From an uncultured Caldilineales bacterium (GTDB lineage: Bacteria; Chloroflexota; Anaerolineae; JAAEKA01), in contig CALESQ010000111.1 in the NCBI GenBank assembly GCA_937907455.1, forward strand, positions 21,454 through 85,453: a stretch of 64,000 nt of DNA, given 5' to 3'. Positions 17,295-45,363 of this stretch are shown here, piece by piece. The position numbers and the translations under genes were made by a program. The notes under the pieces are model-generated. The model did no database searches, was not told the DNA's origin, and saw only the letters and a list, made by a program, of their open reading frames with translations. Within the stretch, counting starts at the first letter, position 1; every line of letters starts with the position of its first letter.

Positions 17295-17340
17295 AGGTTA
17301 ATGTGCATCCCGTGGAACTGGTTTGATGTATTTCGCCATA

Positions 17341-17394
17341 CCCTTTGTGTCTATAATAGGTGAAACAGCTTCTGCGACGAATTTAGTGTACAAT
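17341..17394. repeat. left copy of perfect 54-bp inverted repeat (contains TGTCTATAAT -10-like box)
   Basis: ccctttgtgtctataataggtgaaacagcttctgcgacgaatttagtgtacaat is the exact reverse complement of 19992-20045. Confidence 0.9.
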
Positions 17395-17414
17395 TGGCGC
17401 TCCACCCGTCCCGC

Positions 17415-18152
17415 CTATTTGCGTACCACGTAACGCACGTTGTTCCAGTCGTCGCTGCGCACGTAGTAGACCCGCACTTCGCCGCTGCTCAAGTGCTCAG
17501 CGCGCTGAGCCGTGTAGTCCTGCCCAGTCCACTGCACCTTGAACTCGCCAGAGTTGGGCACGAACCCATCGGCGAAGATGCGTTTCTGCAGGGCAGCGCC
17601 CGGGTTGAATTCGATCACCTGCTTGCGTTGGCCGTGCCAAACGAGGGCATCATCCAACTTGCCAAAGATCGGCTCCACATCCTCTAGCTGCCAGACGCCA
17701 TGCAATGGGCCTCGGTGATTGGTGCCACCCTTCATGCCAGTACCAGACAAACAATCAGACGGAGCGCTGGACAACACCCAAAGGTGATACCACGGTCCAT
17801 AGGCGCTGCCTAGGCCAAGGCCGTGCATTCCATCCGAGGCCGTGCGCTTGACAACGCCACGATCTGCCCAGCGATTATCATAGCCCGTCAGGTTGTCGAA
17901 AGTTGGCTCGTTGCCTGGACTGTCCAGACTCGGCCAAGTCATCACCACCGGTTGATTATCCACCGGCATGTTGTTCTTGCCGCGAACTTCAGCCTTGACC
18001 AACGCAGGGCCTTCCGTGCAGAAGATTGCTTGCAAGCGCCAAACTTCCTTGGCATTGCCAATCTTGGCCGGCAATACGACGCAGCCATCATATGTTTGCG
18101 CCAGCCAAGTCAGGCTGCGCTCGGTTCCGTCAACATCAAATACACGTGTCAT
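17415..18152 (-). CDS. hypothetical secreted/cell-wall-associated protein in lysis cassette (245 aa)
   Basis: rc ATG 18150-18152 after AGGAGACAAACG RBS; low-GC. Confidence 0.55.
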   Translation of the reverse strand: MTRVFDVDGTERSLTWLAQTYDGCVVLPAKIGNAKEVWRLQAIFCTEGPALVKAEVRGKNNMPVDNQPVVMTWPSLDSPGNEPTFDNLTGYDNRWADRGVVKRTASDGMHGLGLGSAYGPWYHLWVLSSAPSDCLSGTGMKGGTNHRGPLHGVWQLEDVEPIFGKLDDALVWHGQRKQVIEFNPGAALQKRIFADGFVPNSGEFKVQWTGQDYTAQRAEHLSSGEVRVYYVRSDDWNNVRYVVRK

Positions 18153-18162
18153 CGTTTGTCTC

Positions 18163-19812
18163 CTATGGTTTGTTGACTTGCCTGACGACCCACTGTCCGT
18201 CAGGAGTAAGGTTGGTGGCAAAGAAGGCGACCTCATGGCCGTCAGCGGGGCGATATCCCAGCTGAGTTACCCCCTGCCACGTGCTTCCCGCGCGTACATC
18301 CGTCTCGTTGCCGATGGGTGTGTAGCCCGCCTGACGCATGGCAATCTCGATGGCTGAGACAGGGTTGGGCGAGATGACCTGTGCAGTCTTGGCGACTGCC
18401 CAGATCAGCGAACTGCTGGCGTCGGGACTGTTCAACCAAGGCAGGACAGCGGCCAGTTTGTCGCCAGGGCACGAGGTCTGGTTGCCCGGCACATCGCGGT
18501 GGCCCGCCACCGGCAAGGGCGCAGCAGTCCAAGTGGCCCAGCGCCGTGCTGTCTGAAGGACCCGGCGCAGCACGTCCACTTCCTCGACGGTCGGTTCTTC
18601 ACGGACGAAGCTGCCGGCCAGGCAGACGGCGAGGCCGCGGTCGTTGCCAATCGTGTGGGCGTGATAGCTGCGCGTCCGCGGGTCGTTGAGCAGTGAGACC
18701 ATCACCTTGCCACCAAATGAGCGCACGCCGATGTGATAGCCGATCCCCGGCCAGCCGTTGCTGTTGACGTGGTATTGCGCCACGCTCTGCCACGTTGCCG
18801 CCTTCGATGCCTCGGTGTGGTGCAGAACAATGCGGTCGATGGCTGAAAGCGCCCGCTCGTGATAGACCAGTGTCGCATGGCGAGGCAGCGACCTGGATAG
18901 GTCCTCGTAGTCGGCGCCGAACTCTGCCCTGAGCAGTTCTCCCAGCGGGGGCGGCGCGCTGGGTGCGGTCGGCTCATACGAGCCACCCCGCGCTTGAATG
19001 TGTGCATTGATCATGTCGTTCATCTCCCTGTCCACTTCGAAGTCCTCCCAGCCCATGGGGCCGGCCGTGAAGATGGTGGCCGTCAACACGTAGGGGTCTT
19101 TTGCCAACTCGGCATCGAACATGGCCAACTGCTCCATGTAGTGCGCCCGATCTCGGCAGAACGTCCTCCAGCCCCTCTTGGGCATATCGATCACTCCGCC
19201 ATCCACACCACATTCGGTGATCAGCAGTGGGGGCAGCACGATGCCCGCTTCAATGGCATAGCGCGCGTTCAGGCGATAGCGAAAAGCGTGCCATTCGGTC
19301 ATGCCACTTTCCAAATGCGGATAGTCCAACACCCAGTAGCAGTGCTGAGACCAGTAGTCGCAGGCCGCCAACCCACGGGCGATTTCCTGAAAACAGGCTC
19401 TGCGCTGCGCCTCGTCGCCGCCCGGATTGCCCTCGCTCAGGTTGCCGCCCACAAGCTGCAACCCGGCGCCGTGCATCAGCTCGGCCAGGCGGATCGTGAA
19501 CTCGCTCAGCTGGCGGCAAAACGCCAGATCGGCTACCGGCTGCGGCTCGTTGGGCGCCTCCCAAATGCGGATGTATGGCGCGCGGGCGAATGTGGGCTGG
19601 CAGAAGCCGAACCATGCCTCAGCGCCGGCCGCCCCGCGCCTAACCAAGTCATTGCTGTCATTGTCGGGCATGTACACCCGCCCAATGATCTGCTTTCCCG
19701 GCCAACGATTCTCGCTGGGCGGATCCATGACCTTGATCCAGCGCGCTGCGCTGCTGTTACCATCGGCCCAGTTGGGGTGGGCCTGTAAGTGCAACGACAG
19801 TTTACTTGTCAT
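18163..19812 (-). CDS. two-domain endolysin: N-terminal GH5-like glycoside hydrolase (NEP...ITECG) plus C-terminal N-acetylmuramoyl-L-alanine amidase (Amidase_2/PGRP)
   Basis: WEAPNEP and ITECGVDGG catalytic-type motifs; amidase_2 signature HHTEA..GIGYHIG..HRDV..TSCPG. Confidence 0.75.
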   Translation of the reverse strand: MTSKLSLHLQAHPNWADGNSSAARWIKVMDPPSENRWPGKQIIGRVYMPDNDSNDLVRRGAAGAEAWFGFCQPTFARAPYIRIWEAPNEPQPVADLAFCRQLSEFTIRLAELMHGAGLQLVGGNLSEGNPGGDEAQRRACFQEIARGLAACDYWSQHCYWVLDYPHLESGMTEWHAFRYRLNARYAIEAGIVLPPLLITECGVDGGVIDMPKRGWRTFCRDRAHYMEQLAMFDAELAKDPYVLTATIFTAGPMGWEDFEVDREMNDMINAHIQARGGSYEPTAPSAPPPLGELLRAEFGADYEDLSRSLPRHATLVYHERALSAIDRIVLHHTEASKAATWQSVAQYHVNSNGWPGIGYHIGVRSFGGKVMVSLLNDPRTRSYHAHTIGNDRGLAVCLAGSFVREEPTVEEVDVLRRVLQTARRWATWTAAPLPVAGHRDVPGNQTSCPGDKLAAVLPWLNSPDASSSLIWAVAKTAQVISPNPVSAIEIAMRQAGYTPIGNETDVRAGSTWQGVTQLGYRPADGHEVAFFATNLTPDGQWVVRQVNKP

Positions 19813-19830
19813 GCTGTTTCTTCTCCTTCT

Positions 19831-19971
19831 TCATATCCAACTCAGCTTGCACTCAGCACTGAACCTGCGTCGTTTGGCCTTCGGCACGACTTCCGGGTTT
19901 GACTGTACTACCAGTGAGTGGCCGTTCAGTGATCCGTTCTTGCTGACTTTGACCGGTTGCTTGTGTGACAT
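19831..19971 (-). CDS. small basic protein (46 aa) between right IR and endolysin
   Basis: rc ATG 19969-19971 preceded by GAAGGAG RBS; MSHKQPVKVSKNGSL... Confidence 0.4.
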   Translation of the reverse strand: MSHKQPVKVSKNGSLNGHSLVVQSNPEVVPKAKRRRFSAECKLSWI

Positions 19972-19991
19972 CTTCTTGACTCCTTCGGTGT

Positions 19992-20045
19992 ATTGTACAC
20001 TAAATTCGTCGCAGAAGCTGTTTCACCTATTATAGACACAAAGGG
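19992..20045. repeat. right copy of perfect 54-bp inverted repeat (likely promoter for lysis cassette)
   Basis: exact reverse complement of 17341-17394; TATAAT on minus strand upstream of 19971 gene. Confidence 0.9.
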
Positions 20046-20120
20046 CTTGATATATGCGCATTCCTGCATTCTCCTATTGCCTCACCACGAAGGGGATTAC
20101 ACTTTCATTTGACGAGATGT

Positions 20121-21995
20121 TTACAACACAAACCCCACGCCGCCCACCGGCCCCCGCAAATCCTGCCAGGACCAGTACGCGGCGTCAGTCAGGTCGAACG
20201 GCTTGACCTTGGGAAAACGGCGCAGCGCCTTCTCCAGGGTGACGTGGGTGCCCAGGACGTGGATGATGCGGCCCCGTTCGTAGTCGGCCAGCATCTGCTG
20301 CGCGCGATGGGCCTTGGGGCCGTGGCCGGCGCCGGCCTTGTCGGAGCGGAACGGCGGCGGGTCGCTGATCCCTAAGCCGGCGGCCGCCTCCCGATAGACG
20401 CTGGCCCAGGTGTCGCCGCCCTGGTCGGTCTCCACGCCCACCGCCTCGGCGCCCAACTCGACCGCCTTGCGGATGGCGCGCTGGAGGGCGTCCTGCGGAC
20501 TGGTGACGTGCTCCCACGAAAACAGGCGGAAGATCGTGCCGTCCGGGCCGATGCCGTCGGCCTGGATGCCCTGGCTGTCCGAGGCGTCGGTGGACGTGAC
20601 AGCCGGGTCTACCCAGACCACGATGCGCACCAGCGCCGGCAGCTCGTCCCAGGCGCAGCGCATGAACTCCAGGTGGTCGAACATGCCGCCGGCAGCCTCC
20701 TCGACCTCGTGCTGGGCCTCGTGCAGGAAGGCCGTCAAGCCCCAGGCGTCGAGCTGCTGCTGGGCGTGCTCCATGCTCTGGCCGACCCAGATCGACTGGC
20801 CGCCGGTGATGACGTAGCGCCCGCCGCGCATCTCGTAGGTCAGGTTGCGCACCGCCGGGTGGGGACCTGAGACGATGCGCTCGCGCAGGAAGTCGGCGCG
20901 GCCGTCGGCCATGCGGCTGAACAGCCCGTTGGGGATAATCAGGTTCTGGATGCCAATCACCGCCACGTCGGGCGAGCCGGCCGGCAGCAGGGACGTGGTG
21001 AGGGTGGTGATCTTCTTGGCCGTGTAGCCGGGGTTGTCCAGCTTGTTGTCCAGGTCATCCAGGCAGTTGTGGGAGAGGCCGAACGCGGTCAGGTAGGTAT
21101 GCGAGGCCGTGGTGATGGGCGCGAAGGTCCTGACGCCGGCCGGCTGGACGCTGCGCACCCGGTTCCAGAAGGCGCCGTTCAGTAGGCCGTAGCCGATCTG
21201 GTCGCCCGGCTCCAGGTCGCGCGCCTCGATCCAGCCGCCGTCTTCAACCACGTTCTTGCGCGCCCAATAGCGGTGTTCAGGCGTCACCACCTCGGCAAAC
21301 GACAGGCCGGCCACCTGCACCTCCAGGCCCTCAGCCTGGCGCAGGCCCAGCAGTCCGGGGTGCTCCTCGACCATCACCCAGCGGCCCATGTCGTAAACGG
21401 GCGTGCCGACCTCGTGGCAGATCAAGTCGGGCCGGTTCTCCTCGACTTTCGAGCCGCGGTAGGCCGTGTCGAAGCCGATGGCGTCCACCGTGAAGCCGCT
21501 GGCCGCGCGCATTCGCTCACGCCGCCAGCCGCGCGTGTTGCCGTACTTGCCCTTCTGCGGCGCGCCCAGCATGGGGTAGAACTCGGCGATGGCCGACGAC
21601 TCCAGCAGCACGGCGATGTTCTCGACCGACTTGTCGGCCAGCTCCTGGGTCTCGCGCACGTACCAGGCGTACTTGCGCACGCCGCGCGCTCCCAGGGCCA
21701 CGGTGGCCATCTCGGCGGAGGACGACTTGCCGCCGCCGCGCGGCCAAATCGCGATGAAGGCCGGCGGGCGCTGGCCCCGCTTTAGCGCCCAGACGTGATC
21801 CCAGAACTCGGCATGGTGGTCGCCGAACTCGAAGCCGACGTAGGCCGGGAACATGGCGCGCAGCCAGCCGGCCCAGTCAGCCGGCGGCGGGTCGATGCGC
21901 TGGGCGCGGCTGCGCGGGTCGATCTCGTCGGCCGCGCGCCGCAGCAGCATGTCGTAGGCCGTCCCGAACTGCGGGAGGAGGGAGGAGACCGTCAT
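20121..21995 (-). CDS. terL: terminase large subunit (ATPase plus nuclease) containing a mini-intein
   Basis: Walker A IWPRGGGKSSS; nuclease-domain similarity; 624 aa immediately downstream of the terS-like gene. Confidence 0.8.
   Translation of the reverse strand: MTVSSLLPQFGTAYDMLLRRAADEIDPRSRAQRIDPPPADWAGWLRAMFPAYVGFEFGDHHAEFWDHVWALKRGQRPPAFIAIWPRGGGKSSSAEMATVALGARGVRKYAWYVRETQELADKSVENIAVLLESSAIAEFYPMLGAPQKGKYGNTRGWRRERMRAASGFTVDAIGFDTAYRGSKVEENRPDLICHEVGTPVYDMGRWVMVEEHPGLLGLRQAEGLEVQVAGLSFAEVVTPEHRYWARKNVVEDGGWIEARDLEPGDQIGYGLLNGAFWNRVRSVQPAGVRTFAPITTASHTYLTAFGLSHNCLDDLDNKLDNPGYTAKKITTLTTSLLPAGSPDVAVIGIQNLIIPNGLFSRMADGRADFLRERIVSGPHPAVRNLTYEMRGGRYVITGGQSIWVGQSMEHAQQQLDAWGLTAFLHEAQHEVEEAAGGMFDHLEFMRCAWDELPALVRIVVWVDPAVTSTDASDSQGIQADGIGPDGTIFRLFSWEHVTSPQDALQRAIRKAVELGAEAVGVETDQGGDTWASVYREAAAGLGISDPPPFRSDKAGAGHGPKAHRAQQMLADYERGRIIHVLGTHVTLEKALRRFPKVKPFDLTDAAYWSWQDLRGPVGGVGFVL
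21066..21419 (-). other. mini-intein (Hint domain, ~118 aa, no homing endonuclease) inside terL
   Basis: starts CHEVGT (Cys1 and Thr6 of block A), block B TPEH, C-terminal block VRTFAPITTASHTYLTAFGLSHN followed by +1 Cys. Confidence 0.65.
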
Positions 21996-22624
21996 CGGCC
22001 CTCCGCGGCGATGATGCGCCGGATGCCGTCGGAGATGGCAATCAGCGCGCGCTGGTCGTCTACGTGCTCCTTGACCAACTTCGTGACCGCCATCACCAGC
22101 ACCATCGCCTGCTCAGCCGTCACCATCTGGGAAAGTTGCACCAGCCGCTTGCGCTCCGACTCCACCAGTTTGCGCCGCAGGTCCAGCATTTCGCCCACCT
22201 CGCGCCAGGCATGATACCCGGCCTGGCCCCGCCTCAGCGCGCCGCCCATCGCGTCCAGGGAGGACTTCAGGCCGGCCGCGTCGCCGGCGGCGATGGCGTC
22301 CTGGAGGGCGGCGTAGTTCTCCATCGCCTTGGCCCAGGCCGCCCCGGTCTCGCCGCTGTCCAGCTTAGAGAGCAGCTCGGCCAGGCGGGTGTCGATGATG
22401 GCGATGTCGTCGCGCATGACCAGCAGGTCGCCGTCGTTGGCCGCCCGCTCGTACTGCTCCAGCAGGCGCTTGGGCATGTAGCGGGAGTAGCGGCCGTCCT
22501 TGTACTGCGGCAAGGCCACACCCACCAAAGACTTACCACCGTGTAGCCGACACCGCCCGTTGGCCATGACTGCTGTGTTTTTGCACGGTTCTCCGCTGCG
22601 CGTCTTCGCGCCACACTGTTTCAT
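21992..22624 (-). CDS. putative terminase small subunit / DNA-binding protein with N-terminal zinc-ribbon (HGG motif)
   Basis: rc ATG 22622-22624; CGAKTRSGEPCKNTAVMANGRCRLHGGKS; directly upstream of terL. Confidence 0.55.
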   Translation of the reverse strand: MKQCGAKTRSGEPCKNTAVMANGRCRLHGGKSLVGVALPQYKDGRYSRYMPKRLLEQYERAANDGDLLVMRDDIAIIDTRLAELLSKLDSGETGAAWAKAMENYAALQDAIAAGDAAGLKSSLDAMGGALRRGQAGYHAWREVGEMLDLRRKLVESERKRLVQLSQMVTAEQAMVLVMAVTKLVKEHVDDQRALIAISDGIRRIIAAEGR

Positions 22625-22671
22625 TATGACAACCGTACATGGGGGTTTTGCGCGTGCATAGGGGTGTGCGC

Positions 22672-22863
22672 CTACGCCTGAGCCGGGCCGGCTTCGAGGA
22701 GGACGGGCGCGACGCCGGTTAGGAGGAAGAAGCGCTCCAGCGCCACAGCCACATAACCCGGCTCGATCTCCACAGCCCGGCAGCGCCGCCCCAGCCGCTC
22801 GCAGGCTATCAGGTCTTGTGCTTTTGCCAGTCTTGTGGTACAATGCCCGTATGAAACACTCAT
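22672..22863 (-). pseudogene. orphan 3'-end fragment of a DNA methyltransferase (paralog of the C-terminus of the 23490..24680 gene)
   Basis: RLGRRCRAVEIEPGYVAVALERFFLLTGVAPVLLE vs RLGRRCFGIEIDPGYCAVTLERMSGLGVTPILVE. Confidence 0.5.
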
Positions 22864-23591
22864 TGCAATGCTCTCACTGTGGCAAGGCGATTAAACGGGA
22901 AGATTACCAGATTGCCCGTAACACGACGGGGCTTTGGTTTTGCTCTTACGACTGCCAAAAGTCCTACCGCAAAGCCAACACCATTGCGCCTGAGTTGACT
23001 TGTCCGGTGTGCGGAAAACAGTTCATTGTCAAACCCTACAGGGTGAAGCAAGGAAAACAGCTTGCTTGCTCGTTGGAATGTCGCCAAGTTCTGCTTGGCT
23101 GGGGTAGCAAGCTGCTCAACTGTGAATGGTGCGGACAAGAGTTTCGCCGTCGAAATGCCCAGGTGAACGGACACAACTTTTGCAGCCGTCATTGCATGGG
23201 ACAATGGCAGTCTGAATACGTCACGGGTGAACAAAGCCCAAGTTGGCGCGGTGGCTGGCAACCTTACTATGGCAAGGATTGGAACAAGCAAAACCGCCAA
23301 GCCCGCAAGCGAGACGACCACACCTGCCAGGGGTGCGGAGTTCATCAAAGTGAAATCGCCTATACCCTCGAAGTTCATCACAAGAAACCTGTGCGCCTTT
23401 TCGACAATCCCAACGATGCCAACTCGCTGGACAATCTCGTTACGCTTTGCCGTCCGTGTCACGTCAAGATGGACGTATACGCCCGTTGGCTATTCGACAA
23501 GAATGGGCGTGACACCAAGCCCGCTCATCCTCTCCAAAGTGACAGCGCAATAGCCAGGGTCTATCTCAATACCAAAACAGCGCCGTCCTAG
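22851..23591 (+). CDS. HNH homing-type endonuclease with N-terminal multi-CxxC zinc fingers; low-GC
   Basis: HNH motif DDHTCQGCGV..EVHHKKP..NLVTLCRPCH; own TTGTGC-N17-TACAAT promoter; 3' end overlaps convergent MTase by ~100 nt. Confidence 0.8.
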   Translation: MKHSLQCSHCGKAIKREDYQIARNTTGLWFCSYDCQKSYRKANTIAPELTCPVCGKQFIVKPYRVKQGKQLACSLECRQVLLGWGSKLLNCEWCGQEFRRRNAQVNGHNFCSRHCMGQWQSEYVTGEQSPSWRGGWQPYYGKDWNKQNRQARKRDDHTCQGCGVHQSEIAYTLEVHHKKPVRLFDNPNDANSLDNLVTLCRPCHVKMDVYARWLFDKNGRDTKPAHPLQSDSAIARVYLNTKTAPS

Positions 23592-24680
23592 TCTGTGCGC
23601 TGCGACCATTGTCGTGCCGCTGCCGAGGAAGGGATCGTAAACAATGCCGCCAACGCGCTTCACAAGATCAATGACCACGGCTTGCGGCTTGACGCTGGCG
23701 TGCCATCCTTCTGTGTCAGACAACTCTTGCCCAAGCGTCGTTGGTGAATAGCAGTCGTGAGAATACGGGTGTACGTCCAACCACTCCGCTTTCCCTTTAC
23801 TGCTGGCGCGGATGGCTTCTGAAGTCAGAAGCCATCCGCGCCAGGGGAAAGTCTCATCATTCGGCTTGTACATCCACAACAGCCGCTCAGGATGCCAGCC
23901 CGCCGCCCGCGTTGCGTCAAGCCACACCCATTCAAGCCGTGGTGACTGAAACGCAATCAGCACGCCGTCGTCAATCGGCATCGCAGCAAGGCACCCATCG
24001 AACAGCGCCCGCAGCCCTTCGGGATCGTCGTTTGTGATGCCCTCCCGATTGATGCCGTAGGGCGGATCAGTCACGCAACACCCTGCCTTCTCCCCGCCCA
24101 TCACTCGTGCCACCACCGCCGCGTCCGCGCAGTCGCCGCAGATCAGCCGGTGCTCGCCCAACTGCCACAGTTGCCCCGTGGCCGTTGACCACTTGGCTTG
24201 CAACTCCGCCGCCCGATTTACCTGCCCGCTGTCGTCCTCGCCGGCCGGCGCCTTGAGGCTGCGCAGCAACTCCTTCAGCCGCGCGTCCCCGCCAGCCGCC
24301 ACCGCCGCCAGCTCCTCGTCGGTCTCCTTGAGCTTCGCCACCAGCGCCGCCAGCCTGGCCAGGTCGGGGCTGGAGCCGCGCGCGGTCTCGTTGTCGGCGG
24401 CCATGTAGGCGACGACCTTCTCCGCCGTCCAGTCGGGCGGGATCACGTCGGCCTTGACCTCGGTCTTGCCTTCGGCCTGGGCCGCCTCGATAAAGCCGTG
24501 GCCGGCGACGCCGACGAAGCCGCCCTGGCCGTCGTCCAGCACCACGACGGAGCGAACCTGGCCGAACAGCCGGACCGACCGGCGTAGGTCGGCGATTTGC
24601 TCGTCCGGGTGCTCGTTGTAGTTGTCCGGGCTGGCCCGGTAGCGGTCGAGGGAGATGATGCGGTTGACGACTTCTGACAC
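23490..24680 (-). CDS. ParB-like nuclease domain fused to N4/N6 DNA methyltransferase (beta-class: DPPY then FLGSGTT)
   Basis: VTDPPYG motif IV; DPFLGSGTT motif I; N-terminal ParB-like region. Confidence 0.8.
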   Translation of the reverse strand: MSEVVNRIISLDRYRASPDNYNEHPDEQIADLRRSVRLFGQVRSVVVLDDGQGGFVGVAGHGFIEAAQAEGKTEVKADVIPPDWTAEKVVAYMAADNETARGSSPDLARLAALVAKLKETDEELAAVAAGGDARLKELLRSLKAPAGEDDSGQVNRAAELQAKWSTATGQLWQLGEHRLICGDCADAAVVARVMGGEKAGCCVTDPPYGINREGITNDDPEGLRALFDGCLAAMPIDDGVLIAFQSPRLEWVWLDATRAAGWHPERLLWMYKPNDETFPWRGWLLTSEAIRASSKGKAEWLDVHPYSHDCYSPTTLGQELSDTEGWHASVKPQAVVIDLVKRVGGIVYDPFLGSGTTMVAAHRLGRRCFGIEIDPGYCAVTLERMSGLGVTPILVE

Positions 24681-24694
24681 AGCGTTACTCCAGA

Positions 24695-24724
24695 CTTGAC
24701 AGCTTTTGCTTTTGGGTGTATAAT
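24695..24724 (+). promoter_or_regulatory. conserved promoter cassette copy 4
   Basis: TTGACA 24695-24700, TATAAT 24719-24724. Confidence 0.65.
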
Positions 24725-24748
24725 TCCCTTAGCAGTAGAGAACAAACC

Positions 24749-24771
24749 AAATCCGCAAATTTTGCGGATTT
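24749..24771. promoter_or_regulatory. palindromic operator-like site copy 3
   Basis: aaatccgcaaattttgcggattt upstream of parB-like RBS. Confidence 0.6.
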
Positions 24772-24793
24772 GCCCAGCAAGGAGGCACGACCC

Positions 24794-25693
24794 ATGACCG
24801 GCGAGCGCACCATCCAGCTAATCGACATGCAGCAGATCGTCCCTGGCGACAACGGCACCGGCCACCAAGATCGCACCGTCTTTGACCCGGCCGGCTTGGC
24901 CGAGTTAGCCGGCTCGATCCAGCAGCACGGCCTCTTGCAGCCCATCACCGTCCGGCCTATCGGCGAAAGCGACCTCTACCGCATCGTCGCCGGCGAGCGC
25001 CGCTTCCGGGCCTGCGAGCTGCTGGGCTGGCTGGAAATCCCGGCCATCGTGGCCGACGTGACCGCCGACGAGGCCGCGGCCCTGATGCTGGCCGAGAACA
25101 CGAGCCGGGAAGACCTCAACCCGGTGGACGAGGCCAACGCCTACCAGGTGCGCATCGAGCGCTTGGGCTGGACGGTGGCCGACTGCGCCAGAGCTGCCGG
25201 CGTGTCCGAGGCCCGTGTCTTGTTCCGGCTCAAGCTGCTCAAGCTGCGGCCCGACCTGCTGGACCTGGTGCGCACGGGCAACCTACCGCTGGGCTATGCG
25301 CAGATCATCGCCGACGGCAACCTGGACGTGAACCGCCAGCTCCTGGCCCTGCGGGCGCTGCGCAACAACCCGTCGCCTACGCCCGGTTGGTTCCGCCGCC
25401 AGGTGGGCGAGTTGCTGACCCAGCAGGCCCAGGCCAGCATGTTCGACGACGGGCCGCTGTTCGGCGGGCTGGACTTCGACGAGCCGGCCCAGCACGCCAC
25501 GCCCATCGAACCGCCCACGCCGGCCACGGTCGCGCCGCCGGCAGTAGGGCAGACGCCCAGGGAGATCGTCGCCGGCCAGATAGGCTTCTGGGAACAGGCC
25601 GCCGACGCTTGGGCTGATCTGGGCAAGCCGTTCAAGCGCCAAGAGTGTAAGGCGGCAGCCCAAGCGCTGGGGTTCCTGTTTGCCACGCTCTGA
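24794..25693 (+). CDS. ParB/Sulfiredoxin-domain protein (ParB-like nuclease/partition protein)
   Basis: ATG 24794 after CAAGGAGGCACGACC; ParB N-domain motifs LQPITVRP..YRIVAGERRFRA. Confidence 0.75.
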   Translation: MTGERTIQLIDMQQIVPGDNGTGHQDRTVFDPAGLAELAGSIQQHGLLQPITVRPIGESDLYRIVAGERRFRACELLGWLEIPAIVADVTADEAAALMLAENTSREDLNPVDEANAYQVRIERLGWTVADCARAAGVSEARVLFRLKLLKLRPDLLDLVRTGNLPLGYAQIIADGNLDVNRQLLALRALRNNPSPTPGWFRRQVGELLTQQAQASMFDDGPLFGGLDFDEPAQHATPIEPPTPATVAPPAVGQTPREIVAGQIGFWEQAADAWADLGKPFKRQECKAAAQALGFLFATL

Positions 25694-29994: not shown

Positions 29995-31272
29995 CTAAAG
30001 GGAAGCGCGCAAAAGACTGTAGTCGTATCCATCACTGCGCTGTAGTAGCGTAAGGTGTTTGTGGTGTACGCTGAAACCGCTAAGAGAAAAAAACGGTGAT
30101 CGACGGATAGTTATCCTACCAACATGCGTACCTGTATGCTTGCCTCTTGGCACAACCGCCTTCACGATGTCACCGGTCTGGTAGCCAAGGTAGCGCTTCT
30201 CATTCCCGCGGTGGCGCTTGGGGAAACCGTACTTGTCAGTTTGGCACATCTGGCGCGTGCCACGTCCGGTCGCCTTGATGCGTAATACCTGCATCTCAGG
30301 GTTCAGCATCACACCCAACCCCGATATACCCACGCACGCCGCGTCGATCCAATGCGCTTTGGGATAGCCGTTTTCGTGCCGGTTCCGGGCGGTACGGCCA
30401 CCGCTGCCCCACTCGACGCGCAGGCCGGTTTGACCAAGCGCGTCAGCGAGGGCGTTACGAGTCGTGTTGACTGATGCCGCATCTCTGAGTGGCTTCTTCA
30501 CTTGCCGCTCGATATTGGCCGCCTTCTCTGGCCCGACGAAGACCTCCAGCCGCTGGTTGCCGCGCTTCTGGTTGCACTCATAGCAGGCCCAGGCCAGATT
30601 GTCGATGCGGTCGGAACCGCCGAGGCTGCGAGGGGTGATGTGCTCGATGGTTCCCCGCACTGCCGGCCGCGCGCCGCAGTAGATGCAGGTGTGGTTGAAC
30701 TTGTGCAGCAGATACTCGCGCACCTCCGTACCTTGCAAGGTGCCCTGTTGGTACTCTACGCCGCTGATCTCCGGGTTGCGCATCGCCTGCACGTCGAACT
30801 TGACGCGCTCTAGGCTGATCATGCTGACTGGCGCAAAACGGCGCAGCCTGCCGACCCAGGTCATTACGCTGTCCACCTTGCTGCGCATCGACGGCGCCAA
30901 CCATCCTTGAAGGCGACGGCGGTTGTCAAAACGAGCGGGGCGGTAGCGGGTCTTGCGGTTGCGCCGGCCGCGCCGCAGTTGCCGTCGCGCTGTCATCTTG
31001 TTAGCCACGTTGGTACGGTGCTGCAACTCAGCAGCCCAGACAACTTCGCCGTTGGTTACAACAGCCAAGCCAGTTTGTTTGCTGCCGGGGTCGATCTTGA
31101 CCTGGACCGGCTGCACGTCGCCATTTTTTCGGTCGTGTAGGATAATGGTAAAAGGGTAGCGCCTGTAGACGCTGGCCCGCCCACTCTTGAGGAGTTCTCG
31201 CGCCCGTGCTGGGTGGCAGGGCATCAGGGGTTTACGGTTCGTATCTAGTACGAAAACTGAGTTTTGTTTCAT
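29995..31272 (-). CDS. iscB: IscB-family RNA-guided nuclease (OMEGA / proto-Cas9; PLMP, RuvC-I/II/III, Arg-rich bridge helix, HNH)
   Basis: NRKPLMPCHPARA (PLMP); KIDPGSKQTGLAVV (RuvC-I); RRQLRRGRRNRKTRYRPARFDNRRR; CIYCG..HITPRSLGGSDRIDNLAWACYECNQKRGN (HNH); HWIDAACVG (RuvC-III); 425 aa. Confidence 0.85.
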   Translation of the reverse strand: MKQNSVFVLDTNRKPLMPCHPARARELLKSGRASVYRRYPFTIILHDRKNGDVQPVQVKIDPGSKQTGLAVVTNGEVVWAAELQHRTNVANKMTARRQLRRGRRNRKTRYRPARFDNRRRLQGWLAPSMRSKVDSVMTWVGRLRRFAPVSMISLERVKFDVQAMRNPEISGVEYQQGTLQGTEVREYLLHKFNHTCIYCGARPAVRGTIEHITPRSLGGSDRIDNLAWACYECNQKRGNQRLEVFVGPEKAANIERQVKKPLRDAASVNTTRNALADALGQTGLRVEWGSGGRTARNRHENGYPKAHWIDAACVGISGLGVMLNPEMQVLRIKATGRGTRQMCQTDKYGFPKRHRGNEKRYLGYQTGDIVKAVVPRGKHTGTHVGRITIRRSPFFSLSGFSVHHKHLTLLQRSDGYDYSLLRASL

Positions 31273-35843: not shown

Positions 35844-36049
35844 CCGCCGCCACCCTGCCCCTCGACTTCGACCTGCCCGACTTCGGCCGCGGCGCCTGGC
35901 AGATGTTCACCGCCGACCACGACCCGGACGAGGCGCGCGCAGCCTTCCAGGCCCGCTACGGCCGGCCCCCGCAACACGTCGCGCTGGACAAGCGCTTCCG
36001 GGTTGTGACCCTGAAAGCCGGCCCGGCGCCGGAGGAGGAGACGCTGTGA
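35840..36049 (+). CDS. hypothetical protein (69 aa)
   Basis: ATG 35840 overlapping stop; frame of ORF 35600..36049. Confidence 0.45.
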   Translation: MTAATLPLDFDLPDFGRGAWQMFTADHDPDEARAAFQARYGRPPQHVALDKRFRVVTLKAGPAPEEETL

Positions 36050-38085
36050 CCGACATCCCGCGCGTAGACTGGTACGGCTGCTTTGATAAAACCTGGGCTG
36101 GCTTGCTAGTTGGTGAGGCATTCTCGCACCCCGCCAAAGCCCCGCACGGGTTAGCGGAACGCATTTATCGCCACATGCTTGACAATGGCTGGATCAAGCC
36201 CGGAGACAAAATTATTGATCCCTTTGGTGGCATCGGCGGCCTGGGTTTTCATGCGGCGCTCTTCGGCCTGCACTGGACCGGCTGCGAGTTGGAGGCCCGC
36301 TTCGTGGACTTGGGCAACGGCTACGAGTGCAGCGAGGCGCACCCCTGCCCGGCCTGCAAGCCGGCCTTCGACGAGCTGGCCCGCTGCCGGCGCGCGGAGG
36401 AGGAGGCCAAGGCGCTGCTGGACGGCGGTACTGAGGACGACACCGAGGCGGTCGCGCGCCAAGCGGCCTACGATCACGCTCACGAGAAGCTGCTGGACGC
36501 GCTGACCGTCGAACCCTGCGGCCAGCGCCAGGCCGGCAACATCGAGACCTGGCGCGCCCGCTATGCGCCCCACTTCCCCGGCTACGGCTCAGCCCGGCTC
36601 CTGCAAGGCGACAGCCGGCGGCTTAGGGCGGTGATCGCGGAGGCGGATGGCGTGGTGAGTAGCCCGCCGTTTCATGACAGCCTCGACCTGGGCTTGGTCA
36701 ACGCTGCAGAACGCCGTCAGGTGGCGCGTGCCGCTGGCATAAGCAACGCTGAACACATTTCGCCAATCGACATGGAGCGGCACAAACTACGCAATCAAGC
36801 TGACTACGACTCCACCCCCGGCCAACTCGGCGCCATGCCTGCCGGCTCTCACGACGCCGTAGTCTCCTCACCCCCCTACGCCCAGGCCCGCATCGACGGC
36901 CACGGCGACGAGGGCGCGTCGGGGCTGCGTGCGCAGGACGGCAGCTACCTGCGCGGCCCGGACGGCTGGCAGCAGCGCAAGGCAATGGGCGGGCGCTACG
37001 GCGATAGCGACGGGAACCTGGCCAATCTGCCGGCAGGGGAGCTGGCCGATGGGGTGGTGTCAAGCCCGCCCTACGCGGAGACGGAGATCACCGGACGCCG
37101 CAACTTCGCCTCGCCGGCCAACCCCGGCGGCCAGGACGCCAACATCAACACCGCCGACCGGCAAGACGGCTACGGCAGCACGCCGGGCAACCTGGGCGCG
37201 CTACGGGCCGGCGATTGGGATGCGGCCATCTCGTCGCCGCCCTACGCGGAGACCATCAACCAGACCGATGGCGCCAACGACGCCCAGGCCCGCGTGCAGC
37301 GCAAGGCCGCGGCCGGCGTAGACGTGACGCAACCGATCAACGTCGGCGGCCCCAACAGCGTCCTGAACCAGCCGCAAAACTACGGCAGCACGCCGGGCAA
37401 CCTGGGCGCGCTACGGGCCGGCGATTGGGATGCGACCATCTCGTCGCCGCCCTACGCGGACGGCGCGCAGCACACAGGCGGCGAGACCCGCATGACCAGC
37501 GGGCAAGGCGGTCCGATCCAGTTCGTGGCCTACGGCTCATCGCCCGGCCAACTTGCCGACCTGCCAGCCGGCGACTTCGACGCCTCGGTGGCCTCGCCGC
37601 CCTACGAGCAGCGCACCGTCCACGGCCAGGCCGGCGTGACACGGGAAGGCTTTGCTGACCCGGCGCGCGTCGGCAAAACAAGCGCTGCGCTGGTGTTGGA
37701 CGACTACGGCGCCGACCCGGACAACCTGGGCAACAACACTGGCGAGACGTTCTGGTCTGCCGCGCGCACGATCCTGGAGGAGACCTTCGCCATCCTGAAG
37801 CCGGGCGGCTATGCAGCGTGGATCACTGGCGATTTTGTCCGCGACAAGAAGCGCGTCCTTTTCGGCGAACAGTGGCTGGCGCTGTGCGAGGCCGTCGGCT
37901 TCGAGCCGGTGCTGTGGGCGGTGGCCTGGAAGGCCGAGACGCACGGCCACCAGCTCGGCATCTTCGGAGAGCCGGTCGAGCTGAGGACCTCAAAAGTTTC
38001 GTTCTTTCGCCGGCTGGCCAACCGCAACAACCCGGACGCGGCGATTGAGAACGAGGATGTCCTGTTTGTTCGCAAGCCTTTATAG
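36046..38085 (+). CDS. DNA methyltransferase-like protein with N-terminal SAM motif I and six tandem SPPY(F) modules
   Basis: IIDPFGGIGGLG; VVSSPPF, VVSSPPYAQA, VVSSPPYAET, AISSPPYAET, TISSPPYADG, SVASPPYEQ each preceded by a YGSTPGxLGA-type segment; C-terminal ILKPGGYAAWITGDF. Confidence 0.7.
   Translation: MTDIPRVDWYGCFDKTWAGLLVGEAFSHPAKAPHGLAERIYRHMLDNGWIKPGDKIIDPFGGIGGLGFHAALFGLHWTGCELEARFVDLGNGYECSEAHPCPACKPAFDELARCRRAEEEAKALLDGGTEDDTEAVARQAAYDHAHEKLLDALTVEPCGQRQAGNIETWRARYAPHFPGYGSARLLQGDSRRLRAVIAEADGVVSSPPFHDSLDLGLVNAAERRQVARAAGISNAEHISPIDMERHKLRNQADYDSTPGQLGAMPAGSHDAVVSSPPYAQARIDGHGDEGASGLRAQDGSYLRGPDGWQQRKAMGGRYGDSDGNLANLPAGELADGVVSSPPYAETEITGRRNFASPANPGGQDANINTADRQDGYGSTPGNLGALRAGDWDAAISSPPYAETINQTDGANDAQARVQRKAAAGVDVTQPINVGGPNSVLNQPQNYGSTPGNLGALRAGDWDATISSPPYADGAQHTGGETRMTSGQGGPIQFVAYGSSPGQLADLPAGDFDASVASPPYEQRTVHGQAGVTREGFADPARVGKTSAALVLDDYGADPDNLGNNTGETFWSAARTILEETFAILKPGGYAAWITGDFVRDKKRVLFGEQWLALCEAVGFEPVLWAVAWKAETHGHQLGIFGEPVELRTSKVSFFRRLANRNNPDAAIENEDVLFVRKPL
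37170..37250 (+). repeat. 81-bp intragenic direct repeat, copy 1 (encodes one SPPY module)
   Basis: 80/81 identical to 37380-37460, spacing exactly 210 bp (70 codons). Confidence 0.85.
37380..37460 (+). repeat. 81-bp intragenic direct repeat, copy 2
   Basis: see copy 1. Confidence 0.85.
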
Positions 38086-44022: not shown

Positions 44023-44480
44023 CTGAGCCGGCCGCGCCCGACGCCCGACCGCTCACCCTCCTCCTGGCCGGCGCGCTCCTCCTGGCGGCGCTGACCGTGC
44101 TGCTGGTCGGCGGCTCCCTGGCCTGGCTGGACGCCGAGGCACAAGGACAGCCAACTGTTTACCGCGCGCTGCTCACCTGCCCAGAGAACCGCATCATCGT
44201 CAACGACGAGACGCCCCATACCTACTGGCGCGCGGTCTACACTGGCCGGCCACCCACCGATCCAGCCTGCAACTGGGGATGCGTCTGCTTCACCGGCTGG
44301 GGCCTGCTGCCGGCTGGCGGCAGTTGGTGGGTGCCGATGTACCAGGACGATGGCGCTGTTGTGCGCCGCAACCTCTCCGTTGAAGTCATGGAGGCCGGCA
44401 ACGCGCCGCTAGTCGTGGCGGTGTGGCCGGCGCGCCCCTGTGGCAGCTCGGTGTGGCTGCCGGCAGTGGAGCGCTACTGA
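44023..44480 (+). CDS. membrane protein (one TM helix; start uncertain, possibly GTG 44023)
   Basis: frame of ORF 43854..44480; LLLAGALLLAALTVLLVGG. Confidence 0.35.
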
Positions 44481-44679
44481 TGACCATCTCCAACGCCCTG
44501 GCTGTTTGGGGCCGGCAACTGGAGGCCGCCGGCTACCGCGACGTACAGCCGCGCGTGCTGGTCGTCACGCAAGGCCCCAACCCGCTGCCTGTCCTGCTGA
44601 TCGACGCCGCCCTGAGCGATGCCGAGGCCGAGCAGGTGCTGCTGGCCGCGCTGGCCGTGCTCAAGAAGGGAGACGGTTG

Positions 44680-45363
44680 ATGATCAAGCTGACCCACGCT
44701 TCGCGCGGCTCCGAGTTGTACCAAGTCGTTTCTGATTACGTGCGCGAGCGCCACTACCTGCACACCATGCCCGATCCGCGGGCAACGCCTGAGACGTTTA
44801 TTGTTTGGTTGCCGTCCGGCCTGGCCGGCGTCCTGGTCTTCAGCCGCCCGGAGGCCACCCGCTGCGCTGATTGGTACGGCAGTGTTGACGATGCAGCCGC
44901 CGGCCGCTGCGACTCCACGCGCTGGCAGGTTCTCAACCTGGCCCGCGTTTGGATCGCGCCGCGCTACCAGGCCGGTGGGGAATTGTATGAGCCTGCGCAT
45001 GTACCCGGCTACACCGACCGGCGCGGTCGCTTCCGCTCAACGCTGGCCAGCGCAATTCTGCGCACCGCCATCGACCACATCGGCTATGAGTACCTGCTTT
45101 TGCGCCCGCCCTGCTTTCTGGAGGAGCCGTACCGCATCCGTTGGCTGCTGTCCTACTGCGACACTCGCCTGCATCGCGGCGTGATTTATGCCGCTGCCGG
45201 CTTTGAACTTTACAAGACCAACCCCAAAGGCATCCAGACCTGGCGCATTCGCCTGCCCGACCTAACTGCTCAGCAGGATGCCGCCATTCGCCTGGCCGCT
45301 GAGCGCCACCCCCGGTCTATCGCCTACCGCGGCCAGCGCGCGCAGATGGCGCTAGGAATCTGA
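44680..45363 (+). CDS. hypothetical protein (227 aa); possibly GNAT-fold / Mom-like (very tentative)
   Basis: ATG 44680 after GGAGACGG; motifs ERHYLH, RVWIAP, HRGVIYAAAGFE. Confidence 0.5.
   Translation: MIKLTHASRGSELYQVVSDYVRERHYLHTMPDPRATPETFIVWLPSGLAGVLVFSRPEATRCADWYGSVDDAAAGRCDSTRWQVLNLARVWIAPRYQAGGELYEPAHVPGYTDRRGRFRSTLASAILRTAIDHIGYEYLLLRPPCFLEEPYRIRWLLSYCDTRLHRGVIYAAAGFELYKTNPKGIQTWRIRLPDLTAQQDAAIRLAAERHPRSIAYRGQRAQMALGI

What the first reader, a model, noticed from the sequence alone, without database searches (positions are those of the whole stretch)
21066..21419. Mini-intein in the terminase large subunit
TerL (624 aa) has a 118-aa insertion with intein hallmarks: N-terminal Cys with Thr at +6 (CHEVGT), block B TPEH, and a C-terminal ...ASHTYLTAFGLSHN immediately followed by Cys (+1). 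It has no homing-endonuclease domain. Splicing would rejoin ...ENRPDLI to CLDDLDN... within the ATPase domain.
Basis: partly seen in the sequence, partly recalled or inferred. Interest (0 to 1): 0.55.

Follow-up and report, generated by a model that had tools for sequence, protein, structure and literature searches.

The report
118-residue mini-intein in phage terminase
The phage DNA-packaging enzyme (large terminase) in this window is interrupted by a real self-splicing protein element that has lost its homing nuclease; this is an ordinary kind of feature, but at 118 residues it is shorter than any intein I could find described, and standard domain databases do not detect its family.

Summary
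Window 21066..21419 (- strand) encodes 118 aa, CHEVGT...GLSHN, followed by Cys, inside a 624-aa ORF (20121..21995, -) that is a large terminase by PHROG match and by predicted fold.

Of 64 aligned homologues, 57 lack the segment exactly. One is a 506-aa protein, 92% identical, whose length equals 624-118. The segment splits the Walker B strand (RPDLI | CLDD).

Modelled alone, it folds with high confidence (pLDDT 92.6) into a HINT domain, and the top 50 PDB fold matches are all intein, intein-like or hedgehog domains. Homologous terminases carry 350-380-aa LAGLIDADG inteins of the same sequence family at the same site, so this is a derivative that lost its endonuclease.

The +1 residue is Cys in 7/7 intein-bearing alleles and Ile/Val in 57/57 intein-less ones. 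The family-conserved residues are all present.

Verdict: a class 1 mini-intein, very probably splicing-competent, immobile and vertically inherited. It is a new member of a known kind, because terminase inteins, including Walker B ones, are already described.

Two points are mildly notable. It is shorter than gp41-1 (125 aa), which the literature calls the smallest intein. Pfam, NCBIfam and PDB sequence searches do not detect its family. Splicing itself is untested.

The parts
20121..21995 (-). Large terminase (TerL) precursor gene. 624 aa, 68.8 kDa. The stop codon is 20121-20123.
   Evidence: ORF list. phrog_38 'terminase large subunit' at 1.5e-36. The predicted fold best matches PhiV-1, T4 gp17, Sf6 gp2 and D6E large terminases. 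Molecular weights.
21420..21995 (-). N-extein, aa 1-192, ending ...EENRPDLI. It contains Walker A (PRGGGKSS, aa 85-92, window 21720-21743).
   Evidence: Coordinates. R86, G87, K90 and S91 are invariant in 64 homologues. In the model, a strand at 79-83 is followed by a helix at 90-104.
21066..21419 (-). Mini-intein. 118 aa, 13.1 kDa, class 1, with no endonuclease domain.
   Evidence: Exact gap in intein-less homologues. AlphaFold pLDDT 92.6. Top 50 PDB fold hits are all intein, intein-like or hedgehog HINT domains; gp41-1 has TM 0.78-0.79 at rmsd 2.4-2.5. Family hits in 1.84e9 proteins.
21390..21419 (-). Block A, CHEVGTPVYD. Cys1 (21417-21419) is the first nucleophile. His2 is present in every family member examined.
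   Evidence: H2 is 83/83, G5 is 78/83 and T6 is 82/83 in the family alignment. Cys1 was a selection criterion for that set; for the unfiltered list.
21264..21293 (-). Block B, EVVTPEHRYW. It contains Thr46-x-x-His49 (TPEH, 21273-21284).
   Evidence: E43 is 83/83, T46 is T 73 / S 10, and H49 is 83/83.
21165..21197 (-). Junction left by loss of the homing endonuclease (IGY-GLL-NGAFW). In relatives, about 235-260 aa of LAGLIDADG domain sit here.
   Evidence: Alignments A2 and A4. The relatives carry PF14528 LAGLIDADG_3. Model confidence dips to 81-84 in this stretch.
21234..21263 (-). Shortened loop after block B (ARKNVVEDGG). It has 10 residues between W52 and W63, against a family median of 18. 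This is the second source of compaction.
   Evidence: loop length statistics; alignment.
21066..21128 (-). Blocks F and G, TFAPITTASHTYLTAFGLSHN. These include the penultimate His117 and the terminal Asn118 (SHN, 21066-21074).
   Evidence: Y109 and S116 are 83/83, H117 is 81/83 and P101 is 78/83. The position corresponding to the canonical block F Asp is Ala here, and V/A/I/C but never Asp in the family.
20124..21065 (-). C-extein, aa 311-624. It starts with the +1 Cys (21063-21065), followed by LDDLD, the acidic end of Walker B. It also contains the C-terminal RNase H-like nuclease domain.
   Evidence: +1 is Cys in 7/7 intein-bearing alleles and Ile 41 / Val 16 in 57 intein-less ones. D313 and D314 are invariant. 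Nuclease-domain fold hits include P22 and Sf6 terminase nucleases and RuvC.

Best explanation
This is a class 1 mini-intein. It descends from a full-length LAGLIDADG intein that invaded the Walker B strand of this terminase family and later lost its homing-endonuclease domain.

Shown:
- It is a precise 118-aa in-frame insertion.
- It has a HINT fold (predicted).
- It is homologous to both splicing halves of larger inteins at the same site.
- It retains every family-conserved residue and the +1 Cys.
- It has diverged together with its host gene.

Inferred mechanism:
1. The 68.8-kDa precursor is translated with its ATPase active site split.
2. Cys1 attacks the Ile192-Cys193 peptide bond (N-S acyl shift), helped by block B Thr46/His49.
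3. The +1 Cys311 takes over the N-extein by transthioesterification.
4. Asn118, helped by His117, cyclises and releases the 13.1-kDa intein.
5. An S-N shift gives a 55.7-kDa terminase with Walker B restored as ...RPDLI-CLDD..., leaving Cys where intein-less relatives have Ile or Val.

Without an endonuclease the element cannot home. It is inherited vertically, or moved by ordinary recombination, and it persists because any mutation that stops splicing would inactivate an essential packaging enzyme.
For: - Exact coordinates and motifs.
- Precise absence in 57 of 64 homologues, including P0002 (506 aa = 624-118, 92% identical). At DNA level.
- Fold: intein model pLDDT 92.6, pTM 0.85. All 50 best PDB matches are intein, intein-like or hedgehog HINT domains at 10-19% identity. 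Viral structure matches are HINT inserts in phage terminases, RNR and DnaB.
- Origin: homologous TerLs carry 352-381-aa inteins with PF14528 at the same RPDxx|C[LFI]DD site, and both splicing halves align to the window intein at 52-59% identity.
- Independent loss: the window's nearest relatives are full-length inteins. Another mini-intein (P0121, 125 aa) is closest (72%) to a different full-length intein. So endonuclease loss happened more than once.
- Need for a nucleophile: +1 is Cys in 7/7 intein-bearing alleles against Ile/Val in 57/57 intein-less ones. Across 83 family members +1 is Cys 81 / Ser 2.
- Co-inheritance with the host gene: against a second allele found in contigs from at least four sequencing runs, nucleotide identity is 97.2% in the intein and 95.5-95.9% in the exteins. 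The intein has 6 synonymous and 3 non-synonymous codon changes, all at variable positions. GC and GC3 of the intein match the exteins.
- Host protein is a terminase, and the site lies on a strand just before the invariant DD.
- Published precedent: TerL inteins, including a Walker B one, splice efficiently, and the intein sites are incompatible with the TerL pentamer (PMC5050341).
Against: - Splicing was not demonstrated and cannot be with these tools.
- No curated intein model recognises the sequence (Pfam and NCBIfam). A family profile finds no solved intein by sequence. The intein assignment therefore rests on fold prediction, motifs and comparative anatomy.
- The structure is a prediction from a 10-sequence alignment. 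In the full-length model the intein region is only moderately confident.
- The position that carries the conserved block F Asp in many class 1 inteins is Ala here. My mapping of that position uses the Mtu RecA intein sequence from memory.
- 118 aa is below the size of any intein shown to splice that I found, so a folding or activity defect cannot be excluded.
- The synonymous/non-synonymous counts in the intein (6:3) are too small to show purifying selection on their own.
Confidence: 0.85

Rival explanations
1. A decayed, non-splicing HINT domain. The insert is an intein remnant that no longer splices. Either it stays in the terminase as a tolerated surface domain, or the element carrying it is a defective phage.
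For: It has no endonuclease and is extremely short, with two compaction events. There is no Asp at the block F position. No intein HMM matches it. PHROGs did not recognise a portal or capsid gene next to TerL.
Against: All residues needed for the four splicing steps are intact, and so are the residues invariant in 83 family members. The +1 Cys, which intein-less relatives never have at that position, is retained. The insert splits the Walker B strand immediately before the invariant DD, which is not a place where a 13-kDa domain is likely to be tolerated. Two alleles about 4% apart at nucleotide level both keep the ORF and motifs, and their changes fall at variable positions. The lack of a block F Asp is shared by the whole family, including its many full-length, presumably mobile members.
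Confidence: 0.08
2. A conditional intein acting as a switch. Splicing is gated, for example by redox state through Cys1 and Cys+1 or by metal binding through the invariant His2, so that terminase becomes active only late in infection. On this reading the intein is kept for regulation, not only because it is hard to lose.
For: The intein persists without an endonuclease in at least two diverged alleles. It sits in a catalytic motif. His2 next to the nucleophile is invariant in the family, which is unusual. The literature proposes such sensor roles for ATPase inteins (PMC5050341, PMC4760082).
Against: Nothing in the sequence data requires regulation. Persistence of a mini-intein is fully explained by the difficulty of precise deletion. 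Closely related phages do without it (P0002, 92% identical). Full-length relatives with the same His2 look like ordinary mobile inteins.
Confidence: 0.05
3. Not an insertion at all, but a native terminase subdomain or an assembly or annotation artefact.
For: None beyond the lack of database domain hits.
Against: 57 of 64 homologues lack it precisely. The same 624-aa protein, 98% identical, is encoded on 7 contigs read; the loci shown come from four sequencing runs. The insert alone folds as a HINT domain. Related inserts occur at other sites and in unrelated host proteins: DUF932, DnaB-like helicase and glycosyltransferase-containing proteins.
Confidence: 0.01

Closest known systems
Terminase large-subunit inteins of actinobacteriophages, in particular the Walker B insertion TerL1-e of phage Gaia (PMC5050341; bioRxiv 10.1101/2025.01.02.630785)
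   Same: The host protein type is the same. The location is also in the ATPase domain at the Walker B motif. The logic is the same: the precursor cannot form the active motor, so splicing is required. Mini-inteins also occur in that set.
   Different: In those papers TerL1-e groups with class 3 inteins, whereas this one has Cys1 and no block F Cys, so it is class 1. I detected no sequence similarity: there is no tblastn hit of the intein or of this TerL in 50,697 GenBank phage records. The smallest class 1 intein in the 2025 survey is 134 aa; this one is 118 aa.
gp41-1 intein (naturally split, 88+37 = 125 aa; PDB 6QAZ/6RIZ)
   Same: It is the best-superposing solved structure (TM 0.78-0.79, rmsd 2.4-2.5 A). 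It comes from a metagenomic phage. It has a very compact HINT domain and a hydroxyl-His-Asn C-terminus (THN there, SHN here; PMC12245125).
   Different: gp41-1 is split and trans-splicing, with a Ser at +1, and sits in a gp41 helicase. This one is contiguous, has Cys at +1, sits in a terminase and is 7 residues shorter. Sequence identity is about 10%.
Full-length LAGLIDADG inteins of the same 'CHxxGT...SHN' family in metagenomic terminases (e.g. P0126 352 aa, P0048 375 aa, P0007 375 aa)
   Same: They use the same insertion site, the same +1 Cys, the same sequence family (56-59% identity over the splicing domain) and the same invariant residues.
   Different: They carry a PF14528 endonuclease of about 235-260 aa at the point where the window intein has only Y-GLL-N. 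They also have a longer loop after block B. They can presumably home; the window intein cannot.
AceL-TerL / GOS-TerL split inteins (25+104 and 37+115 aa; PMC11766414)
   Same: They are small inteins in metagenomic phage terminase large subunits with a Cys at +1.
   Different: They are naturally split at an atypical site and are larger (129 and 152 aa). I did not compare their sequences directly.

Membership tests
Intein (HINT superfamily, protein-splicing element) | In-frame insertion that is precisely absent from otherwise collinear homologues of the host protein | tested here: met
   There is a 118-aa gap in 57/64 homologues. P0002 is 506 aa (= 624-118) and 92% identical. At DNA level the break is at window 21423/21062.
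Intein (HINT superfamily, protein-splicing element) | HINT fold | tested here: met
   AlphaFold model pLDDT 92.6. The 50 best PDB matches are all intein, bacterial intein-like or hedgehog HINT domains, probability 1.00, TM up to 0.79. This is a predicted structure, not a solved one.
Intein (HINT superfamily, protein-splicing element) | Catalytic set: N-terminal Cys/Ser, block B Thr-x-x-His, C-terminal (His)-Asn/Gln, and Cys/Ser/Thr at +1 | tested here: met
   C1, T46-P-E-H49, H117-N118 and C+1 are read directly and conserved in the family.
Intein (HINT superfamily, protein-splicing element) | Recognition by curated intein sequence models (Pfam Intein_splicing/Hint, NCBIfam intein N- and C-terminal models) | tested here: not met
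   No hit at E<=1 for the intein or at E<=10 for 30 family members. A family profile finds no solved intein. Positive control: the same Pfam scan finds the canonical third intein of P0121 and the first intein of P0192, but not the CHxxGT-family inteins in those same proteins. This is an operational criterion, not a mechanistic one, so it does not exclude membership.
Intein (HINT superfamily, protein-splicing element) | Demonstrated protein splicing (ligated exteins plus free intein) | not testable with these tools
   This needs expression and a gel or mass spectrometry. Expected sizes are 68.8 kDa going to 55.7 + 13.1 kDa.
Mini-intein | Contiguous splicing domain without a homing-endonuclease domain | tested here: met
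   It is 118 aa with no LAGLIDADG, HNH or other domain hit. Relatives have PF14528 inserted between IGx and DGxLW, where the window has Y-GLL-N.
Class 3 intein | No N-terminal nucleophile; Trp (block B) / Cys (block F:4) / Thr (block G:5) triad, with the block F Cys as first nucleophile | tested here: not met
   Cys1 is present. The F:4-equivalent position is Ala. There is no Cys in blocks F or G of the window intein. A Ser-His-Asn end and an aromatic Tyr-Trp pair after block B His resemble class 3 and gp41-1 (PMC12245125). The F:4 position was assigned by my own gapless comparison with the Mtu RecA intein C-terminus, recalled from memory.
Bacterial intein-like (BIL) domain | HINT domain in variable, non-conserved regions of secreted or hypervariable proteins; usually cleaves rather than splices; often lacks a +1 nucleophile | tested here: not met
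   It is inserted in the most conserved motif of an essential enzyme, with a +1 Cys that is specific to the intein-bearing alleles.
Large terminase subunit (host protein) | N-terminal ASCE ATPase with Walker A and B plus a C-terminal RNase H-like nuclease | tested here: met
   phrog_38 at 1.5e-36. Fold matches to PhiV-1, T4, Sf6 and D6E TerL and to P22 and Sf6 nuclease domains. Invariant GKS and DD motifs. No Pfam or PDB sequence hit, so this is a divergent TerL family.

The most novel reading that the evidence does not exclude
This is the shortest natural, contiguous, splicing-competent intein yet seen: 118 aa, against 125 aa for gp41-1, which recent papers call the smallest. It also represents a large phage-borne intein family (block A 'CH..GT', invariant His2, no block F Asp, Ser-His-Asn end) that current intein HMMs miss entirely. 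If so, intein censuses of viral metagenomes undercount, and the HINT splicing core can be smaller than assumed.
Probability: 0.35. Interest if true: 0.5.

Novelty: new member of a known kind. Interest (0 to 1): 0.35.

Why it matters
For biology, this is one more case of a well-known pattern. Inteins target the ATPase motifs of phage terminases, and after losing their endonuclease they persist as immobile mini-inteins.

Two practical points go a little beyond that.

First, small, robust inteins are sought as protein-engineering tools. A natural 118-residue Cys1/Cys+1 intein with an SHN C-terminus would be 7 residues shorter than gp41-1. It comes with about 110 natural homologues to guide engineering.

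Second, Pfam and NCBIfam do not detect this family, even though it occurs in terminases, DnaB-like helicases, DUF932 proteins and others in metagenomes. Such genes are therefore annotated as oversized hypothetical proteins, and HMM-based surveys miss these inteins.

Tried and rejected
- Pfam, NCBIfam and PHROGs on the 118 aa gave nothing.
- phmmer of the intein against PDB sequences gave nothing. A 30-sequence family profile against PDB gave only chance hits with E>=0.3.
- Pfam on 30 family members gave only chance hits.
- The word-indexed homologue search with the 118 aa alone found nothing. It failed even to recover P0001, so this is a sensitivity limit of that tool. The exhaustive HMMER search did work.
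- tblastn of the intein and of the whole TerL against 50,697 GenBank phage records gave no match.
- A profile of the TerL family against PDB sequences gave no terminase hit. The terminase assignment needed the fold search.
- A second copy of this intein family elsewhere in the window was searched for and not found (six-frame search).
- Class 3 intein and BIL domain were considered and rejected (see the membership tests).
- I considered that the neighbouring HNH gene (22818..23591) might act in trans to mobilise the intein. I found no evidence for it. That gene is a separate insertion, absent from the closest intein-bearing relative.
Full report
**1. The observation**

The window has a 624-aa ORF on the minus strand, 20121..21995. 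Residues 193-310 read CHEVGTPVYDMGRWVMVEEHPGLLGLRQAEGLEVQVAGLSFAEVVTPEHRYWARKNVVEDGGWIEARDLEPGDQIGYGLLNGAFWNRVRSVQPAGVRTFAPITTASHTYLTAFGLSHN. That is 118 residues, encoded by window 21066..21419. The stretch is preceded by ...EENRPDLI and followed by CLDDLDNK....

**2. The host protein**

Pfam and NCBIfam do not recognise the ORF. PHROGs places it in phrog_38, 'terminase large subunit', at E 1.5e-36 over residues 23-618.

A full-length AlphaFold model built on 64 homologues has confident exteins. Its best PDB fold matches are large terminases: PhiV-1 (8dgc_E, 2.6e-11), T4 gp17, Sf6 gp2, D6E, and the P22 and Sf6 nuclease domains.

The family-invariant residues include R86, G87, K90 and S91, which form Walker A (PRGGGKSS). 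They also include D313 and D314, which lie directly after a beta-strand. That hydrophobic strand plus DD is the Walker B motif.

The neighbourhood is phage-like. It holds an endolysin, HNH endonucleases, ParB-fused DNA methylases, a replication initiator and a DnaB-like helicase. There are no tRNAs. Overall GC is 64%. Relatives of this TerL occur in metagenome-assembled genomes of Chloroflexota, Actinomycetota, Dormibacterota and others, and in the Rubrobacter marinus chromosome.

**3. A precise insertion**

A homologue search returned 1,293 proteins. Most of the best 120 are about 500 aa. The exceptions are P0001 (624 aa, 98% identical) and eight proteins of 863-978 aa that carry PF14528, a LAGLIDADG domain.

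P0002 is 92% identical and 506 aa long, exactly 624 minus 118. In the alignments the 118 residues face a clean gap between RPDxx and [IV][LF]DD.

At DNA level, the contig encoding P0002 is 87-88% identical on both sides. The alignment breaks at window 21423/21062.

Of 64 aligned homologues, 57 lack the insert. All 57 have Ile (41) or Val (16) where all 7 intein-bearing alleles have Cys. A nucleophile that appears only together with the insert is what a splicing element requires. It is hard to explain for a structural domain.

**4. What the insert is**

Modelled alone, using the homologous parts of nine relatives, the 118 aa give a confident all-beta model (pLDDT 92.6, pTM 0.85).

Foldseek against the PDB returns only HINT domains among the 50 best matches. 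These include the Prp8, Mtu RecA, Npu/Ssp/Mch DnaB, gp41-1, RadA, GyrA, VMA and PolB inteins, bacterial intein-like domains and the hedgehog autoprocessing domain. Probability is 1.00 and TM-score reaches 0.79, at only 10-19% identity.

Against predicted viral structures, the matches are HINT inserts in phage terminases, ribonucleotide reductases, DnaB and polymerases.

By sequence the insert matches nothing curated. There is no hit in Pfam, NCBIfam or PDB sequences, even with a 30-member family profile. A positive control shows this is divergence and not absence of an intein. In P0121 and P0192, which carry several inteins, Pfam finds the canonical ones (Intein_splicing, Hint_2) but not the inteins of this family.

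**5. Origin**

The eight long homologues resolve the history. Five of them (P0007, P0026, P0048, P0050, P0059) have inteins of 366-381 aa at the same RPDxx|C[LFI]DD site. Their N-terminal part (CHEVGT......VTPEHRYWA......GW.EA..L....IG) and C-terminal part (DG.LWS.VRSV....KFAPI.T...TY.T.FGLSHN) align to the window intein. A LAGLIDADG domain lies between them.

The window intein has only Y-GLL-N at that point. It also has a shorter loop after block B, with 10 residues between W52 and W63 against a family median of 18.

An exhaustive HMMER search of 1.84 billion representative proteins found 96 relatives. Almost all were matched in two stretches, meaning they are interrupted by an endonuclease.

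I measured intein length in 90 intein matches, with a few mis-registered boundaries, among the 214 proteins fetched from the two searches. I measured it again in 22 intein matches in IMG/VR loci.
- The bulk are 320-390 aa.
- A few are minis of 125, 129, 135, 155, 158, 166 and 172 aa.
- The window intein and its 98% twin, at 118 aa, are the shortest.

The window intein's nearest relatives are full-length inteins (P0126 59%, P0048 58%). The 125-aa mini in P0121 is closest (72%) to a different full-length intein, P0026. So endonuclease loss happened independently in different lineages.

The same family also sits at other sites:
- a second TerL site (YxLYV|CxTQ);
- a site one residue later in other terminases (PDLII|CDD);
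- DUF932 proteins, DnaB-like helicases and a glycosyltransferase-containing protein.

**6. Is it likely to splice?**

Shown:
- Every residue that is invariant or nearly so in 83 family members is present. These are H2, G5, T6, E43, V45, T46, H49, Y51, P101, Y109, T111, G114, S116, H117 and N118.
- Cys1 and the terminal Asn were selection criteria for that set. The unfiltered list shows the same, apart from a few mis-registered boundaries.
- A second allele, on 7 contigs read (the loci shown come from four sequencing runs), is 97.2% identical in the intein and 95.5-95.9% in the exteins.
- That allele has 6 synonymous and 3 non-synonymous codon changes in the intein. The three replacements (L24R, V58A, E59D) are at variable loop positions.
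- Base composition of the intein equals that of the exteins (GC 0.69 against 0.70; GC3 0.91 against 0.94-0.95).

These points fit long residence and co-inheritance.

Inferred:
- The insert breaks the Walker B strand of an essential enzyme, so an unspliced product should be inactive. This matches published experiments in which TerL inteins, including a Walker B one, splice efficiently and are incompatible with the pentameric motor (PMC5050341).
- The mechanism I propose is the standard class 1 pathway: Cys1 acyl shift, attack by Cys+1, Asn118 cyclisation, then S-N shift.

Caveats:
- Splicing is untested.
- The family lacks the block F Asp common in class 1 inteins. The equivalent position is V/A/I/C and never Asp; I mapped that position against the Mtu RecA intein from memory.
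- No intein this short has been shown to work.

**7. Comparison with what is known**

Terminase large subunits are the commonest intein hosts in phages. Seven ATPase-domain sites have been described in mycobacteriophages, including Walker B (TerL1-e) (PMC5050341; also PMC4760082).

A 2025 survey of actinobacteriophages found 293 TerL inteins and nine mini-inteins. The smallest class 1 intein there was 134 aa (bioRxiv 10.1101/2025.01.02.630785).

So the kind of element, the host, the motif and the loss of the endonuclease are all known. What differs:

(a) Size. gp41-1 at 125 aa is called 'the smallest intein' (PMC12245125) or 'one of the smallest' (PMC12468823; bioRxiv 10.1101/546465). AceL-TerL is 129 aa and Neq Pol 128 aa (PMC11766414). 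I could search only an open-access library and not the curated intein databases, so the record claim is provisional.

(b) Sequence family. It is undetected by Pfam and NCBIfam. It has no hit in 50,697 GenBank phage records. It has its own signature: an invariant His2, no block F Asp, and an invariant Ser-His-Asn end. That end resembles the THN/SHN motif discussed for gp41-1 and class 3 inteins (PMC12245125).

It is not class 3, because Cys1 is present and there is no block F Cys. It is not a BIL domain.

**8. Verdict**

This is a genuine mini-intein and very probably active (confidence 0.85). It is a new member of a known kind.

Interest is moderate to low for biology. It is somewhat higher as a candidate minimal intein scaffold and as a marker of an intein family that current annotation misses.

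Noticed in passing
window 29995..31272 (-): A 425-aa protein with Pfam RRXRR (6e-75) plus HNH_5/HNH. This is the domain pair of IscB-like RNA-guided nucleases. The closest intein-bearing relative (L003) lacks the gene at the syntenic point, but the intein-less relative has it (L001:2220-3479, about 86% nt). I did not look for an associated guide RNA.
   Followed up: partly
window 22818..23591 (+): A free-standing HNH endonuclease gene (257 aa, phrog_1271 at 2e-34) on the opposite strand, between the ParB-methylase gene and the gene upstream of TerL. In L003/L004 the matching interval has no HNH gene, and blastn identity breaks at window 24058 and 22737. So it looks like a separate mobile insertion. 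I found no link to the intein.
   Followed up: partly
window 17296..20116 (-): About 2.8 kb directly downstream of TerL is absent from L003/L004, where the TerL stop is followed at once by the small ORFs that resume at window 17296. The stretch holds a 549-aa endolysin (Amidase_2 in the C-terminal half, N-terminal 320 aa unassigned) and a 273-aa ORF.
   Followed up: partly
P0121 (789 aa, N-terminally truncated) and P0192 (1332 aa), relatives: Single terminase genes carrying three inteins each. In P0121, two are of the CHxxGT family: one at the YV|CxTQ site and a 125-aa mini at Walker B. The third, near the C-terminus, is a canonical Pfam-detectable mini-intein. This terminase family appears to be an intein hot spot.
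   Followed up: partly
P0154, P0177, P0180 and others; P0128, P0183, P0147: The same intein family is inserted in unrelated host proteins: DUF932 (...VRxV|CxNT), DnaB-like helicases (|CDYHxL) and a glycosyltransferase-containing protein. This suggests repeated switching of host gene among phage genes.
   Followed up: partly
window 21992..22843 (-): The 283-aa ORF listed upstream of TerL is probably over-extended. The homologous gene in L003 is 211 aa, which fits a start at the internal MKQCGAK.... It overlaps the TerL start by 4 bases and has no PHROG hit. From its position it is possibly the small terminase subunit.
   Followed up: no
window 23490..24680 (-), 24716..25693 (+), 36046..38085 (+): Several DNA methyltransferase genes, one fused to a ParB_N domain, plus a separate ParB. 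A Mom-like modification protein hit lies at 44440..45363. The element appears to invest heavily in DNA modification.
   Followed up: no
L003:1-2621 (contig of P0001): The close relative carries a serine recombinase and a TnpB (OrfB_IS605 plus Cas12f1-like_TNB) upstream of the shared region. This hints that the element integrates as a temperate phage or prophage and hosts IS200/605-type elements.
   Followed up: no
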